DNA of 64,000 nucleotides, taken from IMG/VR virus record IMGVR_UViG_3300019487_000029, positions 1,621-65,620 of that record. One strand, 5' to 3'. Within the stretch, counting starts at the first letter, position 1. Every line of letters starts with the position of its first letter. Made by a program: the position numbers and the translations under genes. The stretch comes from a virus (Duplodnaviria > Caudoviricetes). The notes beneath the pieces were generated by a model. The model saw nothing but the letters and a program-made list of their open reading frames with translations, was not told where the DNA came from and made no database searches. Positions 43,901 to 58,055 of this stretch are shown piece by piece.

Positions 43901-44210
43901 AGAATTGCAAGAAGATGTTGAGGATCAAATCAACAAACTGAAACGTGCCGCAAAGCTTGCCAAGAAGCACACCAAGGAGGAAATCCTTGCCATGTTCTCT
44001 CATTGGGGATACATCGTTCCCAAGGGAGCAAAAATTTGGCGACTGCATGATTCAAAGCATGAAGGAGCATACGGCATGGAAGTCGGTGGGTATGAACACT
44101 CATGCCACATTGAATCCACCGATTTTCTTGTGTTGCTGGTTGTTGATGGCGACTATCATGGGGTTGAAAGCTATGGAGATTTGTGGCTCGGTGAATTGAC
44201 TGTTGTATGA
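43866..44210 (+). CDS. Hypothetical protein
   Basis: ORF in operon. Confidence 0.6.
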
Positions 44211-44417
44211 ACAGCACTCTTTTTGAACAGTATATTTCCTTGAATGATCAGCTTCTTTGCTACATCATGCAAGGAGGGTCGGAATCCAAGCAAGCCAACG
44301 AAATCCGTTCCAATATGGACCGAGTATGGAAGCAGTTGAGCTTGATTGAGCAACAGTTGGCGAAAGAGAAACTTGAAGGTCCAATTTCAAAGCGATGAAA
44401 ATCCTCTTACTCATGAT

Positions 44418-45158
44418 TTATGAGAACAGTTCTGTTCTGAGTGTCTCTTCTACTTTCTTAATTTCTGTATGTGGAATGCGTCGCAATTTTATTCCCTTTT
44501 GTTTGCAAAACTCAGTTTTGATGGAGTCATTTTCTTGAATTGATGGCGACCAATACTTACTTGTTTTATCAAAGTGATGTCGTCCATCGTATTCAATACA
44601 CATGTTTTGTTTTGGCAAATAAAAATCAAATCGTAATGCAACTCCGTGCTTTCCTACACATCCTTTGAATTTGTGTTCACTATGAAATGGAATGTTTAAT
44701 AAGCGAAGAAGCAAGGTGATTTTTTCTTCACCGTGAGATTGGCGGCAATAAGGACACCCACTTTCTTCATATAAATGTCCTCGTGGCAATTGAAGAAATG
44801 ATTGATCACACATGTTGCATTTGATTTTAACCTTGGTTTTAGCATTGACATAAGTGGTATTGGTATAGTCGTAGTTGTCTCCGTGGATTGCCGTTGCTAA
44901 AGCAATGAATTCTTTGGAACTCTTTCGCTGTGATGTAATTGTACAGGTCGGACAGTTCTTACAATTAAGGAAATTGTACGGGTTTGGATAGAACGTGTTC
45001 CGACATTGGTTACATAGGATTTCAATCGGAGTTCTATTGTTGGCATATTTGACTTTAGAATAATCAAATTTCTTGCCATGTTTGGTGATTGCTTGCTTTA
45101 TAAAATCATCTTGACTTTTTAGGTTGGTTCGCATACACTTATACATATTGGGATTCAT
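44418..45158 (-). CDS. Homing endonuclease, DUF723-like repeats plus Vsr/PD-(D/E)XK domain
   Basis: HG..YDYS.V.Y repeats; RFDFYLP..IEYDGRHH. Confidence 0.85.
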   Translation of the reverse strand: MNPNMYKCMRTNLKSQDDFIKQAITKHGKKFDYSKVKYANNRTPIEILCNQCRNTFYPNPYNFLNCKNCPTCTITSQRKSSKEFIALATAIHGDNYDYTNTTYVNAKTKVKIKCNMCDQSFLQLPRGHLYEESGCPYCRQSHGEEKITLLLRLLNIPFHSEHKFKGCVGKHGVALRFDFYLPKQNMCIEYDGRHHFDKTSKYWSPSIQENDSIKTEFCKQKGIKLRRIPHTEIKKVEETLRTELFS

Positions 45159-45316
45159 CGGAAAAGATGAATGGATTTATGCATCATGACTAAAATAGTA
45201 TCTCTGTGGACTCGGCAACATTCCCGACCTTTTGATGAATTCTCGGAATCGTCCCGAACGTCTTCTTCTCTAAAATCGTGGGCATCTTTCTTTAGTACAG
45301 TGATATTTATACCTGT

Positions 45317-45808
45317 ATGAATGAAAAGATTCAAGCTATTCTGCTCAAAATTGTCCTCGGAATGAAGAAGGAACATTGGGCAGTCGCTCCTGATTGGGAA
45401 GTGACATTGAAGAGCGAGGGTCATGTTCCCCTATCCAAAAGTATTCGGGTTCAAGGAAACTTTAATGATGACGAATGGAGTGACTCAATCGAAACCACAA
45501 TTGATTTGAGACTTACATCCACCGACGAATTGACTTATTTTCCAGAATACACCATCTACGCCAGCATTTTAATTCAAGGTGGTCAAATTCATGACATCGC
45601 ATATAAACTAGATGCCGATGTTGCATTTACTGACCAAGATGTTCGGGACGAAGAAAAAGCAACTGCGTCGGCAAAAAAGATTTCTCGATTAGTGGAAGAT
45701 CACATTGAATCTGAGTACAGCGATTACGTTGATCAGAACGCCCAAGACATTCAAGCATATGAACAGGGTGGTTGGAAGGCAGACGACGATTCCGTAGATG
45801 ATCGATAA
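45317..45808 (+). CDS. Acidic hypothetical protein
   Basis: TATTTAT upstream. Confidence 0.7.
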   Translation: MNEKIQAILLKIVLGMKKEHWAVAPDWEVTLKSEGHVPLSKSIRVQGNFNDDEWSDSIETTIDLRLTSTDELTYFPEYTIYASILIQGGQIHDIAYKLDADVAFTDQDVRDEEKATASAKKISRLVEDHIESEYSDYVDQNAQDIQAYEQGGWKADDDSVDDR

Positions 45809-45849
45809 TCCGTAGTTTTTCGGATTATTAGTAGATATTTATTAGTGTT

Positions 45850-46794
45850 GTGAAGGCACTACAGTTTATTATACTGTTAGTAGTGCTGCTAAGTATGAAC
45901 GGACTTCGGGCAGCTAACCCAACAACTGTCCCCGACTACCTCTCCTCCATCTCTGTCAGAGTAAAAACCCCAATCGGCTCATCTGGTTCGGGTATTGCTT
46001 TCACTAGAAAAGATGCATATGGAAAAGATGTAACTTATGTATGGACCGCTGGACATGTATGTCTTCACCGAGAGACTATACCATTTGTGTATATTGGACC
46101 AAAAATCCCTATGTCCAAAATCCGCTCGGTGGTTCCAACAGAAATCACATATTACACCAATCTCACAGTCTCTCAGGATGTTGTAATCAATGGGAAGTTT
46201 GCATATACAACCAATCTCTCAGCCACTTTAATCAAATGCAGCCCCGACGACGAGGGCAATGATTTGGCGGTTCTCCGAGTGAATGGTAAATTTTTCAATA
46301 ACAACAAAGTCGAATTTGATCTGTCCGGACGAATTCCAAAACTCGGAGAGCCGCTGTACGCTTTCGCATTTCCCTATGGTGAACCAATGTTTACCACAGG
46401 AATGTTTTCTTATGTCGGTCGTGTTTACGATGATTATGTCTATGACCAAAGTTCGTTGATTGTCTATCCGGGTTCAAGCGGTGGTGGTGTTTTCAATGAA
46501 AATCAGAAGTGCGTAGGACTTGTCATGAGAATGAGGGGTGCCGGTCTCAATTATATTGCTCCAATTCGTAGAATGCAAGAATGGGCAAAGGAAGAAGGAA
46601 TTGAATGGGCGTTAAATTCTTCTAAACCAATGCCTTCGGCAGAAGAACTGAAGAAAATTCCACTTCTTGACAAAGAGACAGATGAATGCGAAGATGAAGT
46701 AATTCTGCCAAATCCGTTTAAGCCATTCATGAAGGACTTCAAGCTTAAACCGCCCGCTCTCAAGCCTGACGAAGATAAAAAGCTGGCAAAGTAA
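45850..46794 (+). CDS. Secreted trypsin-like serine protease
   Basis: Signal peptide; TAGH, DLAVL, PGSSGG triad motifs. Confidence 0.88.
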   Translation: MKALQFIILLVVLLSMNGLRAANPTTVPDYLSSISVRVKTPIGSSGSGIAFTRKDAYGKDVTYVWTAGHVCLHRETIPFVYIGPKIPMSKIRSVVPTEITYYTNLTVSQDVVINGKFAYTTNLSATLIKCSPDDEGNDLAVLRVNGKFFNNNKVEFDLSGRIPKLGEPLYAFAFPYGEPMFTTGMFSYVGRVYDDYVYDQSSLIVYPGSSGGGVFNENQKCVGLVMRMRGAGLNYIAPIRRMQEWAKEEGIEWALNSSKPMPSAEELKKIPLLDKETDECEDEVILPNPFKPFMKDFKLKPPALKPDEDKKLAK

Positions 46795-46921
46795 ACTTTC
46801 CACTTGACAATTTCAAGGGATGGGATATACTTCACCCACGCTACTCGTAAAGGGTTTCACCAAAAAAGTGACATTTTTTGTTGACATGACCATATTTATG
46901 CAGTAGAGTGTCGGTATAAAT

Positions 46922-46995
46922 GCCAGATTGATGTAATAGTAGCCTAACGCTCTCATAAGGCGAATGCACTGGGGCAGAACCAGTATCTGGCACCA
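46922..46995 (+). tRNA. tRNA-Met/Ile2 (CAT)
   Basis: Cloverleaf, loop CTCATAA, CCA. Confidence 0.8.
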
Positions 46996-47110
46996 ATTTT
47001 GGGTTAGTTGCACTTTCCCTAGATTAAAAAGGCAACGGTTGTTTGTACTTACGTTTTGGACCTAACATGAAAAACGTGAACGTCGGTTGGAGTAATTTAC
47101 CAATCGTCAT

Positions 47111-47184
47111 GCGGGTGTGGTGTAGTGGTAGCCCACGACATTGCCAATGTTGAAGTGAGGGTTCGATTCCCTTCACCCGCTCCA
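47111..47184 (+). tRNA. tRNA-Gly (GCC)
   Basis: Canonical, U73, CCA. Confidence 0.95.
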
Positions 47185-47189
47185 ATTTT

Positions 47190-47263
47190 GCACCATTGAC
47201 ATAGTGGCTGTGTGTCAGCCTTCCAAGCTGAATAGGTCGGTTCGATCCCGACATGGTGCTCCA
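47190..47263 (+). tRNA. tRNA-Gly (TCC)
   Basis: Loop CTTCCAA, CCA. Confidence 0.9.
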
Positions 47264-47267
47264 ATTT

Positions 47268-47417
47268 TTGCTAGAGTTGGTGTTGTCGAAGGAAGAAGCA
47301 GACAACGAATATGCTTCGCCAAAGCCTTCTATGGAGCCGCAGAGTGAGTCAGAGTCGGTCGTTACATTCCCTCACTATCAGACAACAACACAGCCCCTCG
47401 GTCAAAGGCTATAGCAA
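47268..47417 (+). ncRNA. Y-RNA-like structured RNA
   Basis: GTTGTC/GACAAC stem with GTCGAAG on the 5' strand. Confidence 0.45.
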
Positions 47418-47420
47418 GAT

Positions 47421-47498
47421 GCGTTAGTGGTGTTTTGAACGGCAGCATGATGGGCTTCCAACTCATAGGTGAGGATTCGACTTCCTCCTAACGCTCCA
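47421..47498 (+). tRNA. tRNA-Gly (TCC)
   Basis: Loop CTTCCAA, CCA. Confidence 0.8.
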
Positions 47499-47567
47499 AA
47501 TTTTGTCAGTGGAAATGCCGAGTCAGCGGAAATAATTCTGACCATAGATAAATGAAACTGACAGATT

Positions 47568-47641
47568 GCCGCATTAGTATAAAAGCATTACACGGCTTTG
47601 GTAAAGCTGAGACGACGGGGCAGTACCGTCATGTGGCTCCA
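47568..47641 (+). tRNA. tRNA-Thr (GGT)
   Basis: Loop TTGGTAA, non-canonical T-loop. Confidence 0.85.
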
Positions 47642-47645
47642 ATTT

Positions 47646-47735
47646 GGTCCTGACCCTTGGAGGGACGTTCGACTTATGATCGAATTCGCACTAGATTAGT
47701 GCCGGGATAGGGTTCGATTCCCTACGGGACTACCA
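47646..47735 (+). tRNA. Atypical tRNA, anticodon TAT, long variable arm
   Basis: TTCGA-CTTATGA-TCGAA; tiny D-loop; CCA. Confidence 0.7.
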
Positions 47736-47741
47736 TTTTAT

Positions 47742-47817
47742 TGCGGGGTACAGTTCTGGTGAACTGGGATGTCTCATAAGCATCTTCAGAAAAGTTCGAT
47801 TCTTTTCTCCGCTACCA
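47742..47817 (+). tRNA. tRNA-Met (CAT), 1:72 mismatch
   Basis: Loop CTCATAA, CCA. Confidence 0.75.
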
Positions 47818-47867
47818 TTTTGTGAGATGCAAAGCAACTCATGCGGGGACGCAAAGCGACCTCAGAG

Positions 47868-48020
47868 ATGAAAAAAACTCAGTCCTATAAAAACGAAAAA
47901 GTTAAGGTGATCAAGGAATTGAACATCAAGGACAAAGAAGGAGAATGGGTTCAGATTGAGTTTTTGACAGGAGACAAAAAAGGATGTAGAGTTCCTGTAT
48001 CGTTGAAAGATTTAGAATAA
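47868..48020 (+). CDS. 50-aa hypothetical protein
   Basis: Manual ORF MKKTQSY...KDLE. Confidence 0.5.
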   Translation: MKKTQSYKNEKVKVIKELNIKDKEGEWVQIEFLTGDKKGCRVPVSLKDLE

Positions 48021-48022
48021 TT

Positions 48023-48150
48023 TGTTCAGTGTCATTGAGGGCGGCTACAGATACCGATTTGACATCATACCCCGAAAGGGATTGATACGGGACGCTTGCG
48101 ACAGGGCGACTGTTGGCTGCTGGATGCCGAGTGACCTGAAACACTGAACA
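48023..48150 (+). ncRNA. Rod-like structured RNA
   Basis: TGTTCAGTGT/ACACTGAACA terminal stem. Confidence 0.5.
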
Positions 48151-48154
48151 TTTT

Positions 48155-48239
48155 GCCCATGTGGATAAGCGAAGCTGGAACAAGCAATGTGCTCAAAACA
48201 CGTCATCCTTTATCCGTTCGAATCGGTTCGTGGGCACCA
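48155..48239 (+). tRNA. Atypical tRNA-Leu (CAA)
   Basis: Loop CTCAAAA; expanded D region; CCA. Confidence 0.7.
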
Positions 48240-48244
48240 ATTTC

Positions 48245-48329
48245 CGTCGTGTGGATAAGCGAAGCTGGCACAAGCAACTTACTTAAAATAAGTCATCCTC
48301 TATCGGTTCGAATCCGTTCACGACGACCA
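48245..48329 (+). tRNA. Atypical tRNA-Leu (TAA)
   Basis: Loop CTTAAAA; same expanded D region; CCA. Confidence 0.7.
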
Positions 48330-48341
48330 ATTTGATACCAA

Positions 48342-48719
48342 ATGGAAAATAGTTACGCCAACGAATCAACGGTGTATGACCAATCACCGGCAGTTGAAAA
48401 ACAACAAATTGATTTTATGCACGAGCTTGGGTTTCGTGCAGTCGCCCGAAAGGATACGTGGGTTTTGTGGGAGATGCAAGGTTGGCCGGAAGTCTCTGTG
48501 TGGCTTCAAGGATTTCAAGTGGATTTGAGTCATCGGTATATTCTGATGCAAGTCTATAAGTCGGGAGTGAACAGTGGAAAGGAATTTCAAGCAAATGAAA
48601 TTCGTTTATCGTTGGGACTGTCACCGATGAAGAAGGATGACCTTCTCCGACTGTCCTCATTCGATCATCCGTGGCTTGCGATTGAAATGAATCCAAGACA
48701 CGGGCGACACGAATCATGA
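48342..48719 (+). CDS. Hypothetical protein
   Basis: ORF within tRNA array. Confidence 0.55.
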   Translation: MENSYANESTVYDQSPAVEKQQIDFMHELGFRAVARKDTWVLWEMQGWPEVSVWLQGFQVDLSHRYILMQVYKSGVNSGKEFQANEIRLSLGLSPMKKDDLLRLSSFDHPWLAIEMNPRHGRHES

Positions 48720-48899
48720 CAACTTGTAGCAATTGTAAGCAAGAACGTGAATTGCCCGATGGCATTTCTTGTGAAGAATGTTTGATCTACAAACAATATC
48801 TTGACAAGGAAGACGAGTATGTTATAGTGACTCGTGAAATGGCAAAAGACGCAGGCGACCTTCAATTGGAAGGTCAACTGTGGAAGTGGAATTGATTTT

Positions 48900-48964
48900 T
48901 TCTCGTTGGTGTAGTGATAGCACACTCCGTAAGGAGAAGCGTTGGCTCTAATCCAATACGAGGA
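48900..48964 (+). ncRNA. tRNA-like RNA with GTAA tetraloop replacing the anticodon loop
   Basis: Acceptor, D and T arms recognisable; CTCC-GTAA-GGAG. Confidence 0.55.
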
Positions 48965-48967
48965 TAT

Positions 48968-49042
48968 GTACCGTTCGTAGAGTGGCACATGCGATTGGCT
49001 GCAACCCTTTAGACGTTGGTTCGATTCCAACACGGTACTCCA
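48968..49042 (+). tRNA. tRNA-Cys (GCA)
   Basis: Loop CTGCAAC, U73, CCA. Confidence 0.85.
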
Positions 49043-49108
49043 AATTTGAGTCTAAAACACTCAGTTTCAAGCACTTGTGAAAAAAGTGCAAGAAAGATGA
49101 AAAAGTAG

Positions 49109-49136
49109 TTGACATTTGCCGTGGATGCGGTATAAT
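49109..49136 (+). promoter_or_regulatory. Consensus sigma70 promoter
   Basis: TTGACA-N16-TATAAT. Confidence 0.9.
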
Positions 49137-49147
49137 GTCTCTCGTAA

Positions 49148-49399
49148 ATGAAAGTTCGGAACTGTTTTCCGAGCGAAAAGAAAACTAGCACGCTATTTAT
49201 TAGCAAGCAAATGAGAACAATGCGATCACAACATAAACAATGGTTTAGCCCCTTGGCAATCAAGGGAGAGAACCTCTCTGTTCAGATTAGTCTGACAAAG
49301 AATGTTTATCTCAATGATCGCCCAGAAGGATTCGGCTCATGATGTAACGTACTCACATACCTTACACCAAGAGCCGAGGAAAAAATCCTCGGCTTTTTT
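49148..49399 (+). promoter_or_regulatory. Leader ORF (49148/49211-49342) plus terminator/antiterminator (attenuator)
   Basis: TCGGCTC 49332-38 is complementary to GAGCCGA 49371-77 in the terminator 5' arm. Confidence 0.65.
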
Positions 49400-49434
49400 G
49401 TTGCCCGAAAACAACAAAGAAGAGAAAGAACGCT

Positions 49435-49623
49435 GTGAAAGAAAAAGTTGAATTTGTCGGTGTGGTTTTGAAGGTCAATGGAAAAGAAGTGACCTTCCCG
49501 AAGGAAAAGGTATCCTTTTCTGCTTCGGAAAGTGAGTGCGACTTGTGCGGCTCACATGGCTCAGTGAACTTGAGCGTGGTTGATGGAAAGAAAGTTCTTG
49601 ACGTAGAAGTTCACGAGTGGTAA
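49435..49623 (+). CDS. Hypothetical protein
   Basis: GTG start, CDLC motif. Confidence 0.55.
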   Translation: MKEKVEFVGVVLKVNGKEVTFPKEKVSFSASESECDLCGSHGSVNLSVVDGKKVLDVEVHEW

Positions 49624-49767
49624 GTTGAGAAAGTAGATTTTGATAGGTTTACATGGTGTTGTTCAACCTAGAAAAAGCACCCGTAGAGGCGAGCCGTGGG
49701 AAATCGGAGACGCCGGTATCAGTGGGGACACTGATGCTACCAACGAAGGTTCACAAATCCCTTTAAT

Positions 49768-50154
49768 TTAGGGAACAAATGCAATACCTGCATGAACTTC
49801 CCGATGGCAATTAGCACAAAGAAGATTGCATTTTTTAATCTCTTCCTTTGCCACATCAATGGATGCAAGTCGCAACAGTTCGGAAACTGATTCTAACTTG
49901 GTTGTCATATCTTTGTGATGAAATTCCAATGCGTTTAGACAACGGTTGTAGCCACAAATTTGGCATTTACCTCCACCAAGTTCTTTTAACAATGTCAAGT
50001 TGTTACGGCGACTTTTTGATTTTCGTTTTTGGGCACATTCTTTGTAATGTGGAGAGCAATGATAGCGGATCGTGCTCATGGATGCTCCCGTTATTTTTTC
50101 AATGGCAGAATATGATTTGCCTTCGCCTCTCAATTTCAAAATTTGTTCTTTCAT
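49768..50154 (-). CDS. HTH-HNH endonuclease
   Basis: GGKCQICGY..EFHH..LLCANCHREVH. Confidence 0.88.
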   Translation of the reverse strand: MKEQILKLRGEGKSYSAIEKITGASMSTIRYHCSPHYKECAQKRKSKSRRNNLTLLKELGGGKCQICGYNRCLNALEFHHKDMTTKLESVSELLRLASIDVAKEEIKKCNLLCANCHREVHAGIAFVP

Positions 50155-50217
50155 AAGTGTTGTGGCGAGTCTTATGTTGTCTCGCCATACATAAATAGTT
50201 TTCAAAAAACATAAAAT

Positions 50218-50294
50218 GGGATGCAAGCTCTAATAGTGGTAAGCTACCGGCTTTTAACCGGAAGGACACGGGGCAGTACCGTGGCGTCCTACCA
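50218..50294 (+). tRNA. tRNA-Lys (TTT)
   Basis: Loop CTTTTAA, CCA. Confidence 0.88.
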
Positions 50295-50345
50295 ATTTTC
50301 AAACCCTTTAACGTGTTTTGGAGACTATAAGAAATATGTAGTCTT

Positions 50346-50690
50346 ATGCCAACAGAACAATGGAGAAAAGAACATGTTAAAAAATTGCGACAATATCGTC
50401 GCCAGTGGTATGCTTCTAACAAAAGACATGCCAAGAAAAAGATTATTCAACGTAAGGAAGAATTAAAGCGATGGATGGATACTCTCAAAGAAACTCTTCA
50501 ATGTAATTGTGGAGCATCACACGTTGCTGTTCTTACGTTTCATCATCGTGATCCTAAGAAAAAAGAAATAGAAGTATCACGAGCAGTTGCCGATGGATGG
50601 AGCAAAGAACGAATTTTGAAAGAGATTGAAAAGTGTGATGTTCTTTGTAGAAATTGTCATGCAATTATTCATTGGGAAGAAAACAAATAG
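50346..50690 (+). CDS. HNH endonuclease
   Basis: TFHHRDP..KCDVLCRNCHAIIH. Confidence 0.85.
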   Translation: MPTEQWRKEHVKKLRQYRRQWYASNKRHAKKKIIQRKEELKRWMDTLKETLQCNCGASHVAVLTFHHRDPKKKEIEVSRAVADGWSKERILKEIEKCDVLCRNCHAIIHWEENK

Positions 50691-50761
50691 GCGGGGTGCC
50701 AGCAGCACAGTAGAGTCTCCAAAACTCAGCTTGGTCGGGGCAGCACCGACTCCGCTTGCCA
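50689..50761 (+). tRNA. tRNA-Trp (CCA)
   Basis: Loop CTCCAAA, G73. Confidence 0.8.
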
Positions 50762-50817
50762 ATTTGCGGAAACAGCGTGCGTCTGAAAAGACGAGGGTCG
50801 CTACCGCCACAATTTAT

Positions 50818-50888
50818 AGGCAGTTGCTTTAGAAGCAGACCGAACTCCAAATCCGGTTAAGTGGGAGCGTAACCTACACTGCCTGCCA
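50818..50888 (+). tRNA. tRNA-Trp (CCA)
   Basis: Loop CTCCAAA, G73, short D arm. Confidence 0.75.
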
Positions 50889-50890
50889 AT

Positions 50891-51147
50891 TTCTCGTTTA
50901 GTGTATATTAACACTTCAAGGTAACTGAGGATATACGTAAAGGCTACATATAAATCCTTAACGCAACAATGCGATGGGCAACCATAAAAAACGTGAGCCA
51001 GCAGAAAGGCAGAAAGGCTGGACAGGCGTTGCGGATGCTAAGGTAGCACAATATCGTAAAAAGTAGGGGAAGTAGATTTGCTTGTAGCACAGAAGGCACC
51101 CGCACATCGCATTTGAGCCTTCAGGAGTTGGAACGCCAACACGAGAA
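50891..51147 (+). ncRNA. tRNA-framed large ncRNA (about 255 nt)
   Basis: TTCTCGT/ACGAGAA terminal stem, D- and T-like arms, large insert. Confidence 0.55.
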
Positions 51148-51156
51148 AATTTTTAT

Positions 51157-51231
51157 GGTGATGTTGTTGTAATAGTAGCATCCTAGCTTGTGAAGCTTGT
51201 AGAGCGGGAGCGTAACCCGTACATCACCCCA
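51157..51231 (+). tRNA. tRNA-His (GTG)
   Basis: G-1, C73, loop TTGTGAA. Confidence 0.88.
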
Positions 51232-51240
51232 ATTTCAATT

Positions 51241-51314
51241 GCCTCGGTCGTATAATGGTATTATGCGACTTTCGTAAAGTTGAGACGGGGGTTCGATTCC
51301 CTTCCGAGGCTCCA
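51241..51314 (+). tRNA. tRNA-Thr (CGT)
   Basis: Canonical. Confidence 0.92.
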
Positions 51315-51357
51315 TTTAAGTTGTAGTTTTGAACCATTGAATCATATTTATTAGAAT

Positions 51358-51858
51358 ATGACAATACTTCGAGAATGCAACCAATGTGGTAATAGTTTAA
51401 CTAAACGGTGGCAAACGAAATTTTGCTCTTCAGAATGTTCTGCTACCTATAACAATTTACATCATAAAACTGGCAGATTCAAACATGGAATGTTTACAAA
51501 AAAATTGTGTAAAGAATGTGGCAATGAAACAAAAAACCGAAAATACTGTTCGTCTGAGTGTGCGAATAAAGGAAGAAAAAAAGAATGGGAGCAGAAACTC
51601 CAAACCGGAAAAATCACTTATTCATACACAAATGGACAAGTTCGAAAATGGTTGTTAAACAACAGAGAACATAAATGTGAAAGTTGTCATCTTACAGATT
51701 GGTTGGATAAACCAATAAATTTGACAATGGAACATAAAGATGGGAATGCTTGCAATAACATTCCTGAAAATTTAATGCTTTTGTGTTGGAATTGTCATAG
51801 TATGACGTTGACGTTTGGCCGTAAAAACATAAATGGCACACGACATTACAGAAAATAA
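51358..51858 (+). CDS. HNH endonuclease
   Basis: FCS..C repeats; EHKDGN..NN..ENL.LLCWNCH. Confidence 0.88.
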   Translation: MTILRECNQCGNSLTKRWQTKFCSSECSATYNNLHHKTGRFKHGMFTKKLCKECGNETKNRKYCSSECANKGRKKEWEQKLQTGKITYSYTNGQVRKWLLNNREHKCESCHLTDWLDKPINLTMEHKDGNACNNIPENLMLLCWNCHSMTLTFGRKNINGTRHYRK

Positions 51859-51950
51859 TCTCTGAAATAAATCAATTTGGTTCTTCATTCGGTGAACCAG
51901 AAGTAATGCCCTTTCCACAAGGTCATGTAAATCTTCAAAAACCGACTTCT

Positions 51951-52025
51951 GGTCTCTAAACTTTGATGGTGAAGCACTGGCTCTTAACCAGTTGGAACTC
52001 GGTTCGAGTCCGAGAGGGACCACCA
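51951..52025 (+). tRNA. tRNA-Lys (CTT)
   Basis: Loop CTCTTAA. Confidence 0.9.
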
Positions 52026-52168
52026 ATTTGATAGGTTAATCAATGTTCGGTTAACCTAGTGGAATGAGATAGATGTGAAAGCCGCAAGCTCCACAGAACA
52101 AGTGAGACATTTGCAAGACGGTGCAACTCCGTTGCGATCTCAGTGTGAAATCCTCAGAAAACTATTTC

Positions 52169-52244
52169 GGGCCAGTAGCATCAATGTAATGCGTCTCACT
52201 TGCAATGAGAAAATTGCGGGTTCAAGTCCCGCCTGTGTCCACCA
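52169..52244 (+). tRNA. tRNA-Ala (TGC)
   Basis: Loop CTTGCAA; bulged acceptor stem. Confidence 0.8.
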
Positions 52245-52339
52245 ATTTGTAAAGTGAAAGACAGAATATGTCAGAGAGCGAGTAAACACTCGGTCAACAT
52301 AGCAATGGCTCTTCATGTTGAGAACATGACACTTCACAT

Positions 52340-52417
52340 CTCTCCGTCGCCTAACTTGGTATGGCACTTGATTTGGGGTCAAGAATAATGTAGGTTCAAA
52401 TCCTATCGGGGAGACCA
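52340..52417 (+). tRNA. tRNA-Pro (TGG)
   Basis: Loop TTTGGGG, C1:G72, A73. Confidence 0.88.
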
Positions 52418-52423
52418 ATTTAT

Positions 52424-52504
52424 CGTCTGATCGTCTAAAACCTAAGACACCAACACTGTACTAACGTTGGAGATGCGTGGATGAAGTCATGACAACGACG
52501 ACCA
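52424..52504 (+). pseudogene. Degenerate tRNA-like gene (11-nt anticodon loop)
   Basis: CCAAC-N11-GTTGG; ends ACCA. Confidence 0.5.
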
Positions 52505-52609
52505 ATTTGAGCTAGTAGGTAAGTAAGCCCCGGAAGGGGACACTAGGAGCGAAACTCTGCTTAGACCCCCGTGTGAACGGTGTGGGAGGCTACCTTCGGT
52601 ATCTAATTT

Positions 52610-52667
52610 GAGATACTAACAGCAACCAAAAAACTTGTTTATTCAACAAACCAAAAAATGGTATCTC
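52610..52667 (+). ncRNA. Minimal ACAGCAA-stem RNA
   Basis: GAGATAC-taACAGCAA...GTATCTC. Confidence 0.55.
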
Positions 52668-52673
52668 GCTTTT

Positions 52674-52748
52674 GGGCATATAAAGTAAGAGGAACCTACC
52701 TGTCTGTCACACAGGAGTTCGTGAGTGCGATTCTCCGTATGCCCGCCA
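52674..52748 (+). tRNA. tRNA-Asp (GTC)
   Basis: Loop CTGTCAC, G73. Confidence 0.8.
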
Positions 52749-52791
52749 ATTTGAACTTGACATGTTTTTCCATTTATACGATAATGTGAAA

Positions 52792-53238
52792 ATGATATAT
52801 CAGGTTGTCTGTCCATATTGTAAAAATGAGTTTGCGTGTCCTAAAAATAAGGATACTAGATTCTGTTCAAAACGATGTTGGGGAAATTTTCAAGTCGAAG
52901 CTCGTCTCATTAAAAACTCTATCTATGATAAATCCATTCGTGGATGGTGTTATAGACATCTTGAACAAAAATGTTATGAATGTGGTCAAAGTACTCAATG
53001 GAATAATAAACCATTGAGATTACAAGTAAACCACAGAAATGGCAATACTCGTGACAATCGCCGCAGTAACTTGGGAATGATTTGCCCAAATTGCCACACT
53101 CAAACAGAAAATTGGGGTGTAAAGAATGCATCAGAAAAAGGAAAGCTGAAAATGGTTGAGGGAGCAGCACTGATGCGGAAATCAAATTTGGGGTCGAGGA
53201 AGAACAGCAGACTCGCCTGCCTGTCACGCAGGAGATAG
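52792..53238 (+). CDS. HNH endonuclease (3' end overlaps tRNA-Asp)
   Basis: HRNGNTRDN..NL..ICPNCHTQT. Confidence 0.85.
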   Translation: MIYQVVCPYCKNEFACPKNKDTRFCSKRCWGNFQVEARLIKNSIYDKSIRGWCYRHLEQKCYECGQSTQWNNKPLRLQVNHRNGNTRDNRRSNLGMICPNCHTQTENWGVKNASEKGKLKMVEGAALMRKSNLGSRKNSRLACLSRRR

Positions 53239-53265
53239 CGGGGGCAGCACCCGTCGATCCCGCCA
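53190..53265 (+). tRNA. tRNA-Asp (GTC)
   Basis: Loop CTGTCAC, G73. Confidence 0.85.
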
Positions 53266-53267
53266 TT

Positions 53268-53341
53268 CGTCATATAACTCAATAGTAGAGCAGCCGCCCG
53301 ATAAGCGGAAGACCGTGGAGCGTAACCACGTATGACGACCA
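53268..53341 (+). tRNA. tRNA-Ile (GAT)
   Basis: Loop CCGATAA. Confidence 0.8.
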
Positions 53342-53344
53342 TTT

Positions 53345-53420
53345 CGCTCCGTAGCTCATTCAGCAGAGCGTTCTCTTGATAAGGGAAGGGTGGTTGGAGC
53401 AAAGCCAACCGGAGCGACCA
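53345..53420 (+). tRNA. tRNA-Ile (GAT)
   Basis: Loop TTGATAA. Confidence 0.85.
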
Positions 53421-53503
53421 ATTTATGGGTTTACAGAGAGTACAAACTCTGTTAGTCAGCCTTGTCTTAAAAACGTTTGACGAGGCAAGCCATCCGATTT
53501 CAT

Positions 53504-53579
53504 TCCCGTTTCAAGTATAAAAGTAGTACGCATGGCTTTGAACCATGAGGCGGTGGGGCAGTACCATCAACGGGAGCCA
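53504..53579 (+). tRNA. tRNA-Gln (TTG)
   Basis: U1:A72, G73, loop CTTTGAA. Confidence 0.85.
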
Positions 53580-53717
53580 ATTTACGGGGGTGTCGGAGCA
53601 GCGGAGTTCTAAGAACCATTCATGAGTGGAGTATCTGACGTTGAAGCTGTGCCTATTCCCCATCTTAATTTCTGTCTCATATACAATAGGAAGACGGTGT
53701 GTTGATCCTTCGCATGT

Positions 53718-53792
53718 CGGGCGTGAGGAAGACAGCAATCCGCACCGTTTGGGACGGTGAGACACTGAGGGCAGCACTCAGACGCCCGACCA
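53718..53792 (+). tRNA. tRNA-Pro (TGG)
   Basis: Loop TTTGGGA. Confidence 0.85.
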
Positions 53793-53798
53793 CTTTTT

Positions 53799-53885
53799 GC
53801 ACTTGTCGTCAAATTGGATTGGCAGCAGCCTACGAAGCTGTGTAGCGAAAGCTCTATGAGAGTTCGAATCTCTCCAAGTGTACCA
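53799..53885 (+). tRNA. tRNA-Arg (ACG) with long variable arm
   Basis: Loop CTACGAA; V-arm AGC-GAAA-GCT. Confidence 0.8.
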
Positions 53886-53891
53886 TTTTAT

Positions 53892-53967
53892 GCTCTCGTG
53901 GTGAAATTGGACATCACGCAACCCTGCGAAGGTTGAGTTTCCAGTTCGACTCTGGACGTGAGCACCA
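53892..53967 (+). tRNA. tRNA-Arg (GCG)
   Basis: CAACC-CTGCGAA-GGTTG. Confidence 0.85.
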
Positions 53968-54067
53968 ATTTCAAACACAACCCCAGACGTGGGTGGACAA
54001 AACGCAAAAAACTGCGACCGCTTGAATAACATATAGATGAATACGTGGCATTGACGTGTTTGATTAT

Positions 54068-54142
54068 GGGGAGGATAGTGAAGTGGCATCACACAACTAT
54101 GACACAGTTGAAACATCCGTTCGATTCGGAACCACCCTACCA
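54068..54142 (+). tRNA. tRNA-Val (GAC)
   Basis: Loop ATGACAC. Confidence 0.75.
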
Positions 54143-54148
54143 ATTTAT

Positions 54149-54223
54149 GGCCCTGTAGTGCAAGAGAAGCACGGTTGGCTTTCAACCAACAAATCGTGAG
54201 TGCAACGCTCCGCAGGGCTACCA
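54149..54223 (+). tRNA. tRNA-Glu (TTC)
   Basis: Loop CTTTCAA. Confidence 0.8.
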
Positions 54224-54229
54224 ATTTCC

Positions 54230-54302
54230 GCTCCTGTAAGATAATGTAGTCCCTTCGCCTGATTAGCGTTGTATATCGGTTCAAGTCCGGTCGGGAGCAC
54301 CA
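54230..54302 (+). tRNA. Degenerate tRNA (GAT)
   Basis: Weak anticodon stem, loop CTGATTA. Confidence 0.55.
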
Positions 54303-54311
54303 ATTTCATAT

Positions 54312-54397
54312 GCCTCACTATACCTCTAAAGATGGGGTTCTGACTGTAAATCAGACGCCTTCGGGCTGGGTAGGTGCAATACCTACGTGGGGCACCA
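54312..54397 (+). tRNA. tRNA-Tyr (GTA)
   Basis: Loop CTGTAAA, long V-arm. Confidence 0.85.
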
Positions 54398-54402
54398 TTT
54401 TC

Positions 54403-54561
54403 GGGGATGTGGGCAAGAGTGACGAAAGCCATCGGCATTAGAAGCCGTGAACAACTCCTTAGTAAGTAACTGTGAGGTAGGGGATAAACTAGGATAAACC
54501 CCTTGCATAGATTGCTGATCAGGAGCGAACATCGCAGGTTCAAATCCTGCTGTCCCCACCA
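54403..54561 (+). tRNA. tRNA-Leu (TAG)-like with about 85-nt variable region
   Basis: Acceptor GGGGATG/TGTCCCC, loop ATTAGAA, canonical T arm. Confidence 0.65.
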
Positions 54562-54781
54562 CTTTCAGAAAACCAAACAAAAAACATATGAATCTAGGAC
54601 ACATTCTCGGCAAAAAGCGTAATCGTCTCAGTCGTTGTGGAAAGCGTCTCGCCTCCAAAGAGTTGACGGCAGACCAACGTTCTCGTATTACGCAACGAGC
54701 GGCAGACTTGGAGAAAGAACTTCGAGTTGCCAAAAAGTAAGCTTGGCATAACTTTCACTGTTATGCCAACTATGTATAGTC

Positions 54782-55141
54782 ATGGAAAAGATTATACAAA
54801 AAGAATGCGAATATCATGGAGTAACGGATTATATCCTTGAAGGAAGAGGAACCCATCGGTGCCGCAAATGCCGAAGTGAACGAGTAAGTCGATGGAGAAA
54901 AAATAATAAGGAAAGGTTGGTTGCGGAATTTGGGGGAGCGTGTAAAATTTGTGGTTACAACAAATGTGTGGGAAATATGGTGTTCCATCATATGGACCCA
55001 ATGCAAAAGGGGTTTTCAATTGCAGAAAAAGGAAACACCATTTCGTATGAGCGATTAAAAAAAGAAGCTCAAAAATGCACTTTACTTTGTTGTCGCTGTC
55101 ATGGAGAAGTTCATGCAGGTTTGACCTTTATTCCAGTGTGA
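54782..55141 (+). CDS. HNH endonuclease
   Basis: GGACKICGY..FHH..LLCCRCHGEVH. Confidence 0.88.
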   Translation: MEKIIQKECEYHGVTDYILEGRGTHRCRKCRSERVSRWRKNNKERLVAEFGGACKICGYNKCVGNMVFHHMDPMQKGFSIAEKGNTISYERLKKEAQKCTLLCCRCHGEVHAGLTFIPV

Positions 55142-55205
55142 TGAAACAGTATCATGCCAAGCTGTTACCTTGGACTTCTTCGGGCGGAACGAAGCACTAG
55201 AGCCA
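55132..55205 (+). tRNA. tRNA-Asn (GTT)
   Basis: Loop CTGTTAC, G73. Confidence 0.75.
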
Positions 55206-55233
55206 TTTCGCAGTTTGGATCATATTTATACGT

Positions 55234-55560
55234 ATGAATGAGTCTGATCTTCAAGCCCTAATCAAACAGGTTCGTAAAGAAACTCTCAACGAAGAGCTTA
55301 TGAACCTTGACAAACTTACCGATGGAATATCAACCGTCTCGTTGGTCGGTAAGGAATGGAACAAGTTGATTTCCGGGTTGGAAGGTCTTTTGAACGAGAC
55401 TAAGGATTTCAATCAAATGTATTCAGCAGCACTGCATGGTCCTCAACCAAATACCGGCGGGGCAATGGTGAACTTGGCAATGATTCTGAAGTTGTTAGGG
55501 GCTATCAAGCCCGTGGTCCTTGGTATGGATGACATTCAGAAAAAAGACATGTATTCATGA
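55234..55560 (+). CDS. Hypothetical protein
   Basis: TATTTAT upstream; LIKQVRKETLNEE. Confidence 0.7.
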   Translation: MNESDLQALIKQVRKETLNEELMNLDKLTDGISTVSLVGKEWNKLISGLEGLLNETKDFNQMYSAALHGPQPNTGGAMVNLAMILKLLGAIKPVVLGMDDIQKKDMYS

Positions 55561-55919
55561 TTAGACTGAGACAACTCGTTAAAGAAAACTCATACGAGCA
55601 GTTTTCATGGTTGGACCCCGATGGAAATTTCCACGTTGTTCCAACTGAAGGACATTCGGCGTTCGCCAAGGAAATGCTGAATAAACTGAGAATGCCGTCG
55701 TCAGATGTCTATGGAACCATGTACGATTTGGGATGGGTCCGAGTGACCATGTTTGGTTACATGGGTCAATACGGAGTGCATTTCAATCTTCGAAAAGGTA
55801 AGCGTCCTACGTCAATTCAAAAAGATGCTCTGATTGATCTTGCAAAACGGAACGGGGCGTATGAGATAATTGACGACACAAACGGAGGCGTCGCTTACAC
55901 AGATGAATTTTGGGAATAA
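55557..55919 (+). CDS. Hypothetical protein
   Basis: [11 protein letters not shown]-terminus. Confidence 0.7.
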
Positions 55920-55923
55920 CAAT

Positions 55924-56598
55924 ATGAAACGAAAAAATGGATTTACGTTGATCGAACTGTTGGTAGTGATTGCTATCATTGCAATCCTTGCCGCCATGTT
56001 ACTGCCCGCTTTGTCAAAGGCAAAGGGGTCTGCACAAAAGATTCAATGTGTGAACAACATCCGTCAACTCGGAATGTCTGCAAAGATGTATGCCGATGAA
56101 AACGATGACAAGTTCATGCCTCGCTTGGGTGGAGCACAGAACTTTTGGCCAGCACAGTTGAGCAATTACATTGCTACGCCTACGTTTTTGCGTTGTCCGT
56201 CCGATGTTTCAAAACCAGCTACGTTTGGGGCGGGTGATCCAAATGCATACATTTCGGCACCACGAAGTTTCATCTTCAATGGATTCAACGACTATTTCAA
56301 AAAAGACCTGACCGACAATTCTCCGCTTCCGCAAGGGGCTGAGATGCCAGAGTCCGCAATTCAACAGAGTAGCGAAACCATTCTCTTCGGAGAAAAGGAA
56401 TCAAACTCTGGTCACTATTGGATGGACTATTGGCAAGGCGATGACTACCGAGAAGTAGAACAGGTTCGTCACAACGGTAGTTCAAACTATGCGTTTGATG
56501 ACGGTAGTGCTAGGAGTCTCCGATTCGGCGAATCTTTCATACCAGTCAATCTCTGGTTCGTCAAAGAAGAATGGAGAAACTTGGGTGCTGCATTTTAA
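55924..56598 (+). CDS. Prepilin-type N-terminal methylation / H-X9-DG domain protein (PVC-type)
   Basis: [25 protein letters not shown]; [13 protein letters not shown]. Confidence 0.92.
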
Positions 56599-56600
56599 TT

Positions 56601-56684
56601 GGGAGTTAGGACTAATGATGGTCGCTTGGCTGTAAACCAAGTAACATGCATGTGTAGGTGGTTCGATTCCGCCAACTCCCACCA
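56601..56684 (+). tRNA. tRNA-Tyr (GTA)
   Basis: Loop CTGTAAA. Confidence 0.85.
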
Positions 56685-56872
56685 CTTTACATCCCTACTC
56701 CGAGGCAATCTATGTGTATGAAGTGCTTGAAACATTAGCCAGACGTAGTAATACACGAAGACGGAGAATGGTTGCAGCTACCATTCATTAAAAGATTGTT
56801 TGATGTATTTATGCCACGTAAAACTTGCAAGCTTTTCGTTTCATGAGCGAAAAGGAGTGGCACCACTTTCAT

Positions 56873-56967: not shown

Positions 56968-57015
56968 TTTTACTAAAATAAGTAATTAACCACTATTGGT
57001 TAACTATTTATTACC

Positions 57016-57952: not shown

Positions 57953-57956
57953 ATTT

Positions 57957-58054: not shown

Positions 58055-58055
58055 C

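What the first reader, a model, noticed from the sequence alone, without database searches (positions are those of the whole stretch)
49109..49399. Leader-peptide attenuator that could switch on the tRNA array when translation stalls
Seen: a perfect sigma70 promoter (49109-36, ATG at 49148) and a TATTTAT motif (49194-200, ATG at 49211) both feed the same reading frame, which stops at 49340-42. The last codons contain TCGGCTC, complementary to GAGCCGA in the 5' arm of a strong terminator (AGCCGAGGA-AAAAA-TCCTCGGCT-TTTTT). Inference by analogy with ribosome-mediated attenuation: a ribosome reaching the stop masks the antiterminator and transcription ends, while stalling upstream (tRNA depletion or cleavage by host defence) allows read-through into about 30 tRNAs. 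The leader has no run of one amino acid, so it could act as a general translation sensor.
Basis: partly seen in the sequence, partly recalled or inferred. Interest (0 to 1): 0.75.

Follow-up and report, generated by a model that had tools for sequence, protein, structure and literature searches.

The report
Translation-sensing terminator switch inside phage tRNA array
A giant uncultured phage has a tiny gene wired to a stop/go RNA switch in the middle of its tRNA gene cluster, so it probably transcribes the tRNA genes behind the switch more strongly when ribosomes lag; this is a known kind of control applied to an unusual target.

Summary
At the stated coordinates there is a 12/12 sigma-70 promoter, a TATTTAT gene-start motif, a short ORF ending at 49340-42, and a 7-nt strand (49332-38) complementary to the 5' arm of a strong terminator (49370-99).

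Comparative data support a ribosome-coupled attenuator:
- Five further distinct DNA-level homologues keep the unit at the same place in the array.
- The antiterminator helix shows compensatory changes.
- The stop codon always lies 0-4 nt from the antiterminator strand, or overlaps it.
- The antiterminator and terminator states are equal in energy within 1.7 kcal/mol.
- Masking a ribosome footprint at the stop gives the terminator.
- Unrelated short ORFs with the same switch precede the tRNA arrays of other phage clades.

- Only the 43-codon frame from 49211 is conserved. The frame from 49148 is not.
- The switch sits inside the array, with about 7-8 tRNAs upstream and about 25 downstream.
- It first gates a 62-aa ORF and a conserved structured RNA (49636-49765).
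- Downstream promoters also exist.
- A trigger by host defence is speculation.

Nothing has been tested experimentally. The same kind of element was noted earlier by this scan on other phage genomes. I found no published account.

The parts
49109..49136 (+). Sigma-70-type promoter (TTGACA, 16-nt spacer, TATAAT)
   Evidence: 12/12 match. A 12/12 site stands at the same place in L142 and a 10/12 site in L144. L003 has a TTGACA/TAGAAT site there.
49154..49174 (+). 5'-proximal hairpin of the sigma-70 transcript. It lies inside the non-conserved first ORF that starts at 49148.
   Evidence: MFE fold. Two pairs are changed on both sides in L003. Hairpins at the same place in L142-L146 were read by eye.
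49194..49200 (+). TATTTAT gene-start motif, 10 nt upstream of ATG 49211
   Evidence: 13 of 29 TATTTAT sites in the window lie 4-9 nt before the start of an ORF of 100 aa or more. The motif is kept 7-11 nt before the leader ATG in L003 and L142-L146 (by eye).
49211..49342 (+). Leader ORF: 43 codons plus TGA, with 19 of the 20 amino acids (no Cys)
   Evidence: Frame and ends are kept in P0001-P0004, L003 and L142-L146. No PHROG family matched.
49222..49321 (+). Structured core inside the ORF. Two invariant 7-bp long-range helices (49222-28 with 49315-21, and 49233-39 with 49303-09) enclose variable hairpins.
   Evidence: (z = -3.0 without the terminator). Its role is unknown; a pause or timing structure is an inference.
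49331..49338 (+). Antiterminator 5' strand. It pairs with 49371-49378 and ends 1 nt before the stop codon.
   Evidence: Covariation in relatives was read by eye.
49346..49366 (+). Small hairpin enclosed by the antiterminator helix
   Evidence: Folds. It is conserved in L003 and L142, with changes in the loop.
49370..49399 (+). Intrinsic terminator (9-11 bp stem, 5-nt loop, T-run). It is the only strong + strand terminator in 44000-64000.
   Evidence: (-17.5 kcal/mol). The stem covaries in L003, L143, L144 and L146.
49435..49623 (+). 62-aa ORF (GTG start) directly behind the terminator, with no promoter-like site of its own
   Evidence: A relative (51% identity over residues 28-62) lies in the tRNA array of another phage, L002. 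It is not conserved in L003, which has a different small Cys-rich ORF there.
49636..49765 (+). Conserved structured RNA ('element B'). In relatives it directly precedes the first tRNA of the downstream block.
   Evidence: No Rfam match at E <= 1 or E <= 5.

Best explanation
The unit 49109-49399 is a ribosome-coupled transcription attenuator placed inside the tRNA gene array of a jumbo phage.

Transcripts start at the sigma-70 promoter, and perhaps also at or near the TATTTAT signal. They carry a 43-codon ORF (49211-49342). Its last codons form the 5' strand of an antiterminator helix that pairs with the 5' arm of the only strong terminator in the array.

Inferred mechanism:
- If a ribosome follows the polymerase closely and reaches the stop codon, it covers this strand. 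The terminator then forms and transcription ends at 49399.
- If the ribosome lags, stalls or never loads, the antiterminator forms first. The polymerase then runs on into a small ORF, the conserved RNA at 49636-49765 and the downstream tRNA block (Trp, His, Thr, Lys, Pro, Asp and so on).

The leader holds nearly every amino acid and has no runs, so it would report general decoding speed rather than the supply of one amino acid.

Shown here: the anatomy, its conservation and covariation, and the energetics. Inferred: that the ORF is translated, the coupling, and the effect on tRNA output.
For: 1. **Anatomy.** All features are at the stated coordinates.

2. **Complementarity is not chance.** Shuffle p = 0.0085 for the window, 0.0135 for L003, 0.02 for L013, and 0.002-0.026 for the L004-type units. 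Control: of 23 other terminator-like hairpins in the same loci, none has a run of 7 and one has a run of 6. Of the 12 terminators upstream of element B, 7 have a run of 7 and 3 a run of 6; these 12 belong to about 7 lineages.

3. **Homologues keep the unit at the same syntenic place.** There are six distinct DNA-level members: window, L003, L142, L143, L144 (= L145) and L146. The order is tRNA-Ile/Cys, promoter, leader, switch, then tRNA-Lys/Trp.

4. **The antiterminator covaries** (by eye). A 5-bp core is invariant.
   - The next inner pair is U:A in four members, A:U in L144, and an A:A mismatch in the window.
   - The second inner pair is U:A in three members and C:G in two.
   - The window, L003 and L142 extend the helix on the other side.
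   - The helix is 7-10 bp in all six.
   - The terminator stems covary too.

5. **Stop codon position.** The stop begins 1-7 nt after the core, which is 0-4 nt from the end of the antiterminator strand or overlapping it, in all six (by eye).

6. **Order of folding.** Before the 3' arm is made, the 5' arm pairs upstream in every version folded.

7. **Energetics.** Antiterminator and terminator states differ by 0-1.7 kcal/mol in four sequence contexts. Masking 49325-49353 gives the terminator.

8. **Analogous units in other clades.** Non-homologous short ORFs of 17-36 codons, each with its own antiterminator and terminator, precede element B and tRNA arrays in L004-L013 and L134-L141. One of them has dN/dS of 0-0.4 in most of the 10 pairs (up to 0.68), with mostly third-position changes.

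9. **Gene-start signal.** TATTTAT lies 4-9 nt before 13 long ORFs, out of 29 sites. It is kept before the leader ATG in relatives.

10. **Leader composition.** The leader family holds 19, 19, 19, 20, 19 and 20 distinct amino acids.

11. **No intervening promoter.** No + strand promoter-like site lies between 49136 and 51329. None lies between the terminator and tRNA-Lys in L142 and L144. The scan of L146 lists none either, but there it also missed the unit's own promoter.
Against: - No RNA data are available, so translation of the ORF and regulated read-through are untested.
- The ORF has no Shine-Dalgarno sequence. Only 6 of 40 ORFs tested in this phage have one.
- Window versus L003 over 40 codons gives dN 0.34 and dS 0.81, with changes spread 12/12/15 over the three codon positions. 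Two blocks are identical at every position and are complementary to each other. This fits an RNA-structure constraint as well as coding.
- No classic '1:2' anti-antiterminator was found, so untranslated transcripts would read through by default.
- Amino-acid diversity is individually weak: p = 0.13 for the window. It is absent in two clades (11 of 26 and 9 of 17 distinct residues).
- In L012 the antiterminator needs G:U pairs (longest Watson-Crick run 4). In the L135 type it is weak, and my finder found no terminator there.
- In the more distant clades 1-3 strong TTGACA promoters lie between the terminator and the tRNAs. A conserved motif upstream of element B could be an unrecognised promoter.
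- tRNAs also lie upstream of the switch, and further promoter-like sites lie in the downstream array.
Confidence: 0.58

Rival explanations
1. An ordinary small phage gene (a 43-aa protein) with its own promoter and terminator. The upstream complementary strand would serve something other than regulation, such as refolding of the released 3' end for stability, or it would simply make the terminator leaky.
For: - The ORF frame and two peptide blocks are conserved in nine relatives.
- The gene-start motif is present.
- The L004-type peptide is under purifying selection.
- In distant clades the tRNA arrays have their own promoters behind the terminator.
Against: - The antiterminator is kept by compensatory changes and by different sequences in unrelated units. 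Of 23 other terminator-like hairpins, none has a run of 7.
- The two states are iso-energetic.
- Genes and tRNAs directly behind the terminator have no promoter of their own in the window or in the close relatives L142 and L144.
- The unit always sits in front of a tRNA block.
- No protein family matched.
Confidence: 0.17
2. A riboregulator that senses a ligand, a protein or a tRNA. The structured core (49222-49321) would be the sensor and the antiterminator/terminator the expression platform. The open frame would be incidental or secondary.
For: - Fold z = -5.0 with the terminator and -3.0 without it.
- Two invariant long-range 7-bp helices enclose hairpins that change on both sides in L003.
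- There are no synonymous changes across a 31-nt block.
- The location among tRNA genes recalls tRNA-sensing leaders.
Against: - No Rfam family (T-box included) matched at E <= 1 or E <= 5.
- The structured core is missing from the homologous 28-codon unit of L013 and from the analogous units of other clades, which keep only ORF plus switch.
- The 3' strand of the core helix does not overlap the antiterminator strand.
- The frame is kept through indels that are multiples of three, for example +10 codons in P0004.
- The stop codon sits at the antiterminator strand in all six members.
Confidence: 0.15
3. A stand-alone small non-coding RNA gene of about 250 nt, bounded by a promoter and a terminator, like the stable RNAs encoded in the T4 tRNA region (recalled, not checked).
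For: A promoter, a terminator and strong predicted structure. Element B shows that this array carries conserved non-tRNA RNAs.
Against: As for the riboregulator rival. In addition, this reading does not explain the conserved competition for the terminator 5' arm, the conserved frame, the gene-start motif or the stop position.
Confidence: 0.07

Closest known systems
Leader-peptide transcription attenuators of enterobacterial amino-acid operons (trp, his, leu, phe, thr, ilv). Textbook knowledge, recalled; modelling paper PMC1183508 seen in a search listing only.
   Same: A promoter-proximal short ORF. An intrinsic terminator whose 5' arm can pair instead with an upstream strand. A ribosome at the end of the leader favours the terminator, and a lagging ribosome favours read-through.
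   Different: There are no runs of regulatory codons and no 1:2 hairpin was found. The regulated genes are tRNA genes, a small ORF and a structured RNA, not biosynthetic enzymes. The context is a phage. The ORF is leaderless or lacks a Shine-Dalgarno sequence. There is no sequence homology.
whiB7 (wblC) uORF attenuator of mycobacteria and other actinobacteria (PMC10274678, abstract read)
   Same: Stalling in an upstream ORF leads to antitermination. It responds broadly to shortage of many amino acids, tRNAs and tRNA synthetases, and the uORF coding sequence sets what is sensed.
   Different: The whiB7 uORF is enriched for alanine and controls a transcription factor gene. Here the leader is close to one of each amino acid and controls tRNA genes of a phage. 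There is no homology.
Anabaena trn tRNA array induced by translational stress (PMC8421152, passages read; PMC10272220, search listing)
   Same: An accessory tRNA array whose expression rises when translation is impaired.
   Different: [quoted passage not shown] The words terminator, leader and attenuat- occur 0 times in the main text of PMC8421152. It is a cellular megaplasmid, not a phage.
T-box riboswitch (tRNA-sensing antiterminator)
   Same: An antiterminator/terminator decision linked to the state of tRNAs.
   Different: No Rfam T-box match. No specifier or T-box sequence was identified. Here sensing would go through the ribosome.
Earlier notes of this scan on other phage genomes (e1-6049458, e1-5618024, e1-6003573 and others)
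   Same: A tiny leader ORF rich in different amino acids, with an antiterminator/terminator, in front of phage tRNA arrays. One note also describes a small protein and a structured RNA behind the switch.
   Different: These are unchecked AI notes on other DNA, and I could not compare the sequences. By shared words, only e1-5870617 shares 3 of 91 words with this element.

Membership tests
Ribosome-mediated (leader-peptide) transcription attenuator | A short ORF close to the transcription start, with a plausible start signal | tested here: met
   The 43-codon ORF has TATTTAT 10 nt upstream, and this motif precedes 13 long ORFs out of 29 sites. The ORF is conserved in relatives. Translation itself is not shown.
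Ribosome-mediated (leader-peptide) transcription attenuator | An intrinsic terminator between the leader and the regulated genes | tested here: met
   49370-49399, -17.5 kcal/mol. No + strand promoter-like site follows until 51329.
Ribosome-mediated (leader-peptide) transcription attenuator | An antiterminator mutually exclusive with the terminator and conserved by covariation | tested here: met
   Compensatory changes in 6 homologues were read by eye.
Ribosome-mediated (leader-peptide) transcription attenuator | The antiterminator strand lies within the footprint of a ribosome at the end of the leader | tested here: met
   In 6 of 6 homologues the stop is 0-4 nt from the strand or overlaps it (by eye). 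In the analogous units of other clades it is within about 14 nt, except in L134, where the best pairing strand lies 63 nt upstream.
Ribosome-mediated (leader-peptide) transcription attenuator | Regulatory codons: runs of codons for the sensed amino acid | tested here: not met
   There are no runs. The leader has 19 different amino acids in 43 residues. This departs from the classic amino-acid-specific type and fits a general sensor.
Ribosome-mediated (leader-peptide) transcription attenuator | A pause or anti-antiterminator (1:2) hairpin that gives termination without translation | tested here: not met
   The folds show no conserved pairing that sequesters 49331-49338. A 5-bp pairing with the start region in the window is not kept in L003 (by eye).
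Ribosome-mediated (leader-peptide) transcription attenuator | Read-through depends on leader translation | not testable with these tools
   No RNA run holding this DNA was listed. This needs reporters or Term-seq.
T-box riboswitch | Match to the T-box covariance model (Stem I, specifier, T-box bulge) | tested here: not met
   No Rfam match at E <= 1 in 46000-64000 or at E <= 5 in four related loci.
whiB7-type uORF attenuator | Homology or the actinobacterial whiB7 context | tested here: not met
   The context is a phage tRNA array and the leader matches no family. The likeness is in mechanism only (abstract of PMC10274678).

The most novel reading that the evidence does not exclude
Large phages carry a pan-tRNA gauge: a tiny leader ORF kept stocked with almost every amino acid. 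Slow decoding of any codon, whether from codon-usage mismatch, tRNA depletion late in infection or host anticodon nucleases, would flip an iso-energetic RNA switch. That would raise transcription of the phage's own tRNA block together with a conserved leader RNA (element B), which may itself help long untranslated array transcripts to be completed or processed. This would be direct feedback from decoding speed to tRNA gene transcription, recurring with unrelated leader sequences in several phage clades.
Probability: 0.3. Interest if true: 0.85.

Novelty: new variant of a known kind. Interest (0 to 1): 0.7.

Why it matters
Why phages carry tRNA arrays, and how they are expressed, is debated. 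Control of tRNA genes by leader-peptide attenuation is not in the papers that my four searches reached.

If the switch works as inferred, tRNA supply in these phages is under feedback from decoding speed. That would link phage tRNA arrays to translation stress and possibly to host tRNA-targeting defences. It would also give a compact, portable sensor of general translation speed.

The comparative set assembled here makes the idea testable with simple reporter constructs. It consists of six homologues, several non-homologous analogues, and a conserved companion RNA.

Tried and rejected
**Searches that gave nothing or little**
- Protein-pattern scans of viral contigs with the 64-aa frame, and with a two-sequence alignment, found nothing.
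- An exact 22-nt block scan of viral contigs found nothing.
- The phage collection (blastn) matched only the neighbouring tRNA-Cys.
- PHROGs gave no family for the 43-aa, 62-aa, 59-aa or 125-aa ORFs.
- Rfam gave only tRNAs and sub-threshold noise.

**Sequencing runs**
- No RNA holder was listed.
- Laying contigs of X1 and X2 showed only the source assembly and an identical 211-nt piece. It gave no variant information.

**An uninformative scan**
- The genome-contig scan with a shortened element-B pattern returned at least 120 hits, mostly in GC-rich bacteria. I regard them as chance matches. I did not examine them, so this scan says nothing about hosts.
- L140 is a GC-rich chance hit and was dropped from all counts.

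**Amino-acid diversity as a general property**
- It is significant only for L012 (18 of 23 distinct, p about 0.002).
- The Fisher combination over 5 non-homologous families gives p = 0.006 and is driven by that one.
- Two clades are low in diversity.

**The idea that leader codons mirror the downstream tRNAs**
- The most conserved leader block holds His, Lys, Gln and Trp.
- The first downstream tRNAs in relatives are Lys, Trp and His. In the window Trp and His are the first found, with relaxed ARAGORN.
- Because the downstream block covers most amino acids, I judged the test powerless and ran no statistics.

**Other steps not taken**
- Shine-Dalgarno pairing was rejected as the start signal of the leader.
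- I did not fold or search the 62-aa protein. I made no structure or complex prediction.
- Supplementary files of papers were not opened. None bears on a claim here.
Full report
**What the window is.** The window is 64 kb of a 65.6-kb IMG/VR virus record that CheckV rates as 19% complete. Close relatives of the small ORF lie on contigs of 359 kb and 369 kb, so this is a fragment of a jumbo phage. Public runs that hold it are labelled cave metagenome. The last 17 kb of the window is a tRNA array on the + strand. ARAGORN finds 22 tRNAs. Rfam finds 27 at or above the tRNA gathering score. Relaxed ARAGORN adds, among others, tRNA-Trp at 50818-50888 and tRNA-His at 51158-51231.

**The observation.** Every stated feature is present.
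- TTGACA-16-TATAAT lies at 49109-49136. It is the only 12/12 site of 38 promoter-like sites in 45000-64000, and that total is no higher than in shuffles.
- ATG 49148, TATTTAT 49194-49200 and ATG 49211 are present, and the shared frame ends at TGA 49340-42.
- The 7-nt strand 49332-38 is complementary to 49371-77 in the 5' arm of the hairpin 49372-80/49386-94, which is followed by five T.
- The tool's terminator scan did not list this hairpin.
- My own scan finds it as the only strong + strand terminator in 44000-64000. One weak candidate stands at 55013.
- A complementary run of 7 or more within the 70 nt upstream occurs in 0.85% of dinucleotide shuffles.

**Context that changes the picture.**
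- The element is not at the head of the array. About 7-8 tRNAs (47111-49042) lie upstream and about 25 downstream.
- Behind the terminator come a 62-aa ORF (49435-49623), a conserved structured RNA (element B, 49636-49765) and two ORFs. One is on the - strand (49768-50226) and one on the + strand (50346-50690). Both look like HNH homing endonucleases by their Cys/His motifs; this was read by eye and not tested. Only then come the tRNAs.
- No + strand promoter-like site lies between 49136 and 51329. Others follow from 52757.

**Gene starts in this phage.** Only 6 of 40 ORFs tested pair with the anti-Shine-Dalgarno string at -5 kcal/mol or better (the string was recalled from memory). Instead, 13 of the 29 TATTTAT sites in the window lie 4-9 nt before the start of an ORF of 100 aa or more. 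The motif at 49194 is therefore a real gene-start signal of this phage. Whether it is a promoter or a translation signal is open. It marks ATG 49211 as a likely start.

**Relatives of the leader.**
- Protein searches found P0001 (42 aa, 83% identical) and, with a profile, P0002, P0003 and P0004.
- DNA-level relatives are L003 (metagenome contig) and L142-L146. L144 and L145 are identical over the unit.
- All have the same order: upstream tRNAs ending in tRNA-Ile/Cys, a TTGACA promoter, a 5' hairpin, an A-rich stretch, TATTTAT, the ORF, the switch, then (except L143) an element B variant, and tRNA-Lys and tRNA-Trp.
- In L142, L144 and L145 tRNA-Lys begins 174 nt after the T-run. No + strand promoter-like site lies between in L142 and L144. 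The scan of L146 found no promoter-like site at all, not even the unit's own promoter. In L003, tRNA-Lys begins about 290 nt after the T-run.
- The HNH-like ORFs of the window are absent from L003, L142 and L144-L146. They look like insertions.

**Which frame is conserved.**
- The frame from the first ATG is open into the leader only in the window and L144, and in the gene calls P0002 and P0003.
- It stops after 4-17 codons in L003, L142, L143 and L146 (by eye). It is read in three different frames across the TATTTAT motif.
- The hairpin inside it keeps its pairing through changes on both sides. That region is therefore a 5' untranslated structure, not coding.
- The frame that starts 7-11 nt after TATTTAT is kept in all members, with two conserved peptide blocks and a variable middle. 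Indels are multiples of three, for example +10 codons in P0004.

**The switch.**
- In the six distinct DNA-level members a 5-bp core of the antiterminator is invariant and the flanks covary (read by eye).
  - The first inner pair is U:A in L003, L142, L143 and L146, A:U in L144, and an A:A mismatch in the window.
  - The second inner pair is U:A in L003, L142 and L144, and C:G in L143 and L146.
  - L144 and L146 add one and two further pairs.
  - The window, L003 and L142 extend the helix on the outer side instead.
  - The helix is 8, 8, 10, 7, 8 and 9 bp long.
- The terminator stems differ and stay paired.
- The stop codon begins 1 nt (window, L003, L142), 6 nt (L143) or 7 nt (L144, L146) after the core. 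That is always within 4 nt of the end of the antiterminator strand, or overlapping it.
- Folding the transcript up to the end of the 5' arm pairs that arm with the upstream strand in every version.
- With the whole terminator present, the two states differ by 1.0, 0.1, 1.7 and 0.0 kcal/mol in four contexts of the window. Forbidding pairing of 49325-49353 (a ribosome with its A site on the stop) gives the terminator.

**Analogous units in other clades.**
- Scans for element B found 16 further viral loci. One more, L140, is a chance hit and was dropped.
- Upstream of B each has a short ORF, not homologous to the window's except in L013, followed by a terminator. The ORFs are:
  - 26 codons in L004-L011;
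  - 23 codons in L012;
  - 28 codons in L013;
  - 36 codons in L134;
  - 17 codons in L135, L138 and L141;
  - 23 codons in L136, L137 and L139.
- Perfect complementary runs of 7 occur in L013 and the L004 type (p about 0.02 each). L136 and L139 have a run of 6 next to a further 8 pairs, with the stop codon inside the strand.
- L012 and L134 need G:U pairs, and the L135 type is weak.
- Among 23 other terminator-like hairpins of the same loci, none has a run of 7.
- The L004-type ORF evolves mostly by third-position changes. dN/dS is 0-0.4 in most of the 10 pairs, and up to 0.68.
- In these clades 1-3 strong TTGACA promoters lie between the terminator and B. There, read-through can only add to array transcription.

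**Is the leader a general sensor?**
- The six family members hold 19, 19, 19, 20, 19 and 20 of the 20 amino acids in 42-53 residues.
- Single p values against windows of this phage's own proteins are 0.13, 0.11, 0.11, 0.018, 0.13 and 0.066. The six are not independent.
- L012 has 18 distinct in 23 residues (p about 0.002). The L004 and L135 types are low in diversity.
- The idea fits the window's family but is not a rule for all clades.

**Evidence that cuts the other way.**
- Between the window and L003 the two conserved blocks are identical at every codon position and are complementary to each other. They form two 7-bp long-range helices. The variable middle changes at all three positions (12/12/15), with dN 0.34 and dS 0.81.
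- The fold is unusually stable: z = -5.0, or -3.0 without the terminator.
- This would suit a structured sensor RNA. However, the core is absent from L013 and from all analogous units, and it does not overlap the antiterminator strand.
- I read the core as a structure within the leader (pausing or timing; an inference) rather than as the sensor.

**Comparison with what is known.**
- The design is that of leader-peptide attenuation (textbook knowledge, recalled). It lacks runs of regulatory codons and the 1:2 hairpin.
- In logic it is nearest to the whiB7 uORF attenuator, which answers to shortage of many amino acids, tRNAs and synthetases (PMC10274678, abstract).
- A tRNA array induced by translational stress is known in Anabaena. 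It is controlled at the promoter (PMC8421152, passages).
- Four full-text searches gave no account of a leader-peptide attenuator in front of phage tRNA genes.
- This scan has noted the same kind of element on other phage genomes. Those notes gave me the two papers and the amino-acid-count test. I did not see their sequences.

**Verdict.**
It needs corrections on the frame, the position in the array and the extent of what is gated. The host-defence trigger is unsupported.
- It is a new variant of a known kind of control.

Noticed in passing
window 49636-49765 (+); L003 557-680; L004-L013, L134-L139, L141, L142, L144-L146: Element B is a conserved RNA of about 90-130 nt. It has an invariant hairpin, a second hairpin that covaries (4 of 17 predicted pairs changed on both sides), and a conserved tail. 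In most loci it lies about 10-30 nt before the first tRNA of a block. It has no Rfam match. It was not seen in the 520 nt shown downstream in L143. Its function is unknown; a leader that aids processing or terminator resistance of long untranslated array transcripts is only a guess.
   Followed up: partly
window, 29 sites, e.g. 28621, 45304, 45836, 51345, 57005, 37274(-): (A/C)TATTTAT lies 4-9 nt before the start codon of 13 ORFs of 100 aa or more, while Shine-Dalgarno pairing is rare (6 of 40 ORFs). This is a phage-wide gene-start signal. Whether it is a promoter or a translation signal is undecided. The same motif precedes the short ORFs of the L004 and L136 clades.
   Followed up: partly
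window 49768-50226 (-) and 50346-50690 (+): Two ORFs with Cys/His motifs that look like HNH homing endonucleases (by eye, not searched) lie between element B and the next tRNAs. In L003, L142 and L144-L146, B abuts tRNA-Lys, so these ORFs look like insertions. A tRNA-Lys(ttt) expected here was not found in the window.
   Followed up: no
window 49435-49623 (+); L002 3001-3111: The 62-aa ORF behind the terminator shares a Cys-containing C-terminal half (51% identity) with a small ORF inside the tRNA array of an unrelated phage contig. L003 has a different small Cys-rich ORF at this place. No PHROG family matched.
   Followed up: partly
L004, L005, L008, L009, L011 (unit about 200 nt upstream of element B): A 26-codon hydrophobic ORF under purifying selection (dN/dS 0-0.4 in most of 10 pairs, up to 0.68). 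Its stop codon directly precedes the antiterminator strand. It is preceded by a Lys/Thr-rich small ORF.
   Followed up: partly
window 50818-50888, 51158-51231, 52674-52748, 54149-54302, 58340-58414, 58860-58934, 59171-59247: Relaxed ARAGORN calls further tRNAs (Trp, His, Asp, Glu, Phe, Glu, Lys) that the default run missed. Some carry insertions. Several implausible minus-strand 'intron' calls in the same output were ignored.
   Followed up: no
window 58618-58735 (+): A sub-threshold Rfam match to the Y RNA-like family YrlA (31.4 bits against a gathering score of 69, E = 0.002) overlaps an odd tRNA-Asp(atc) call.
   Followed up: no
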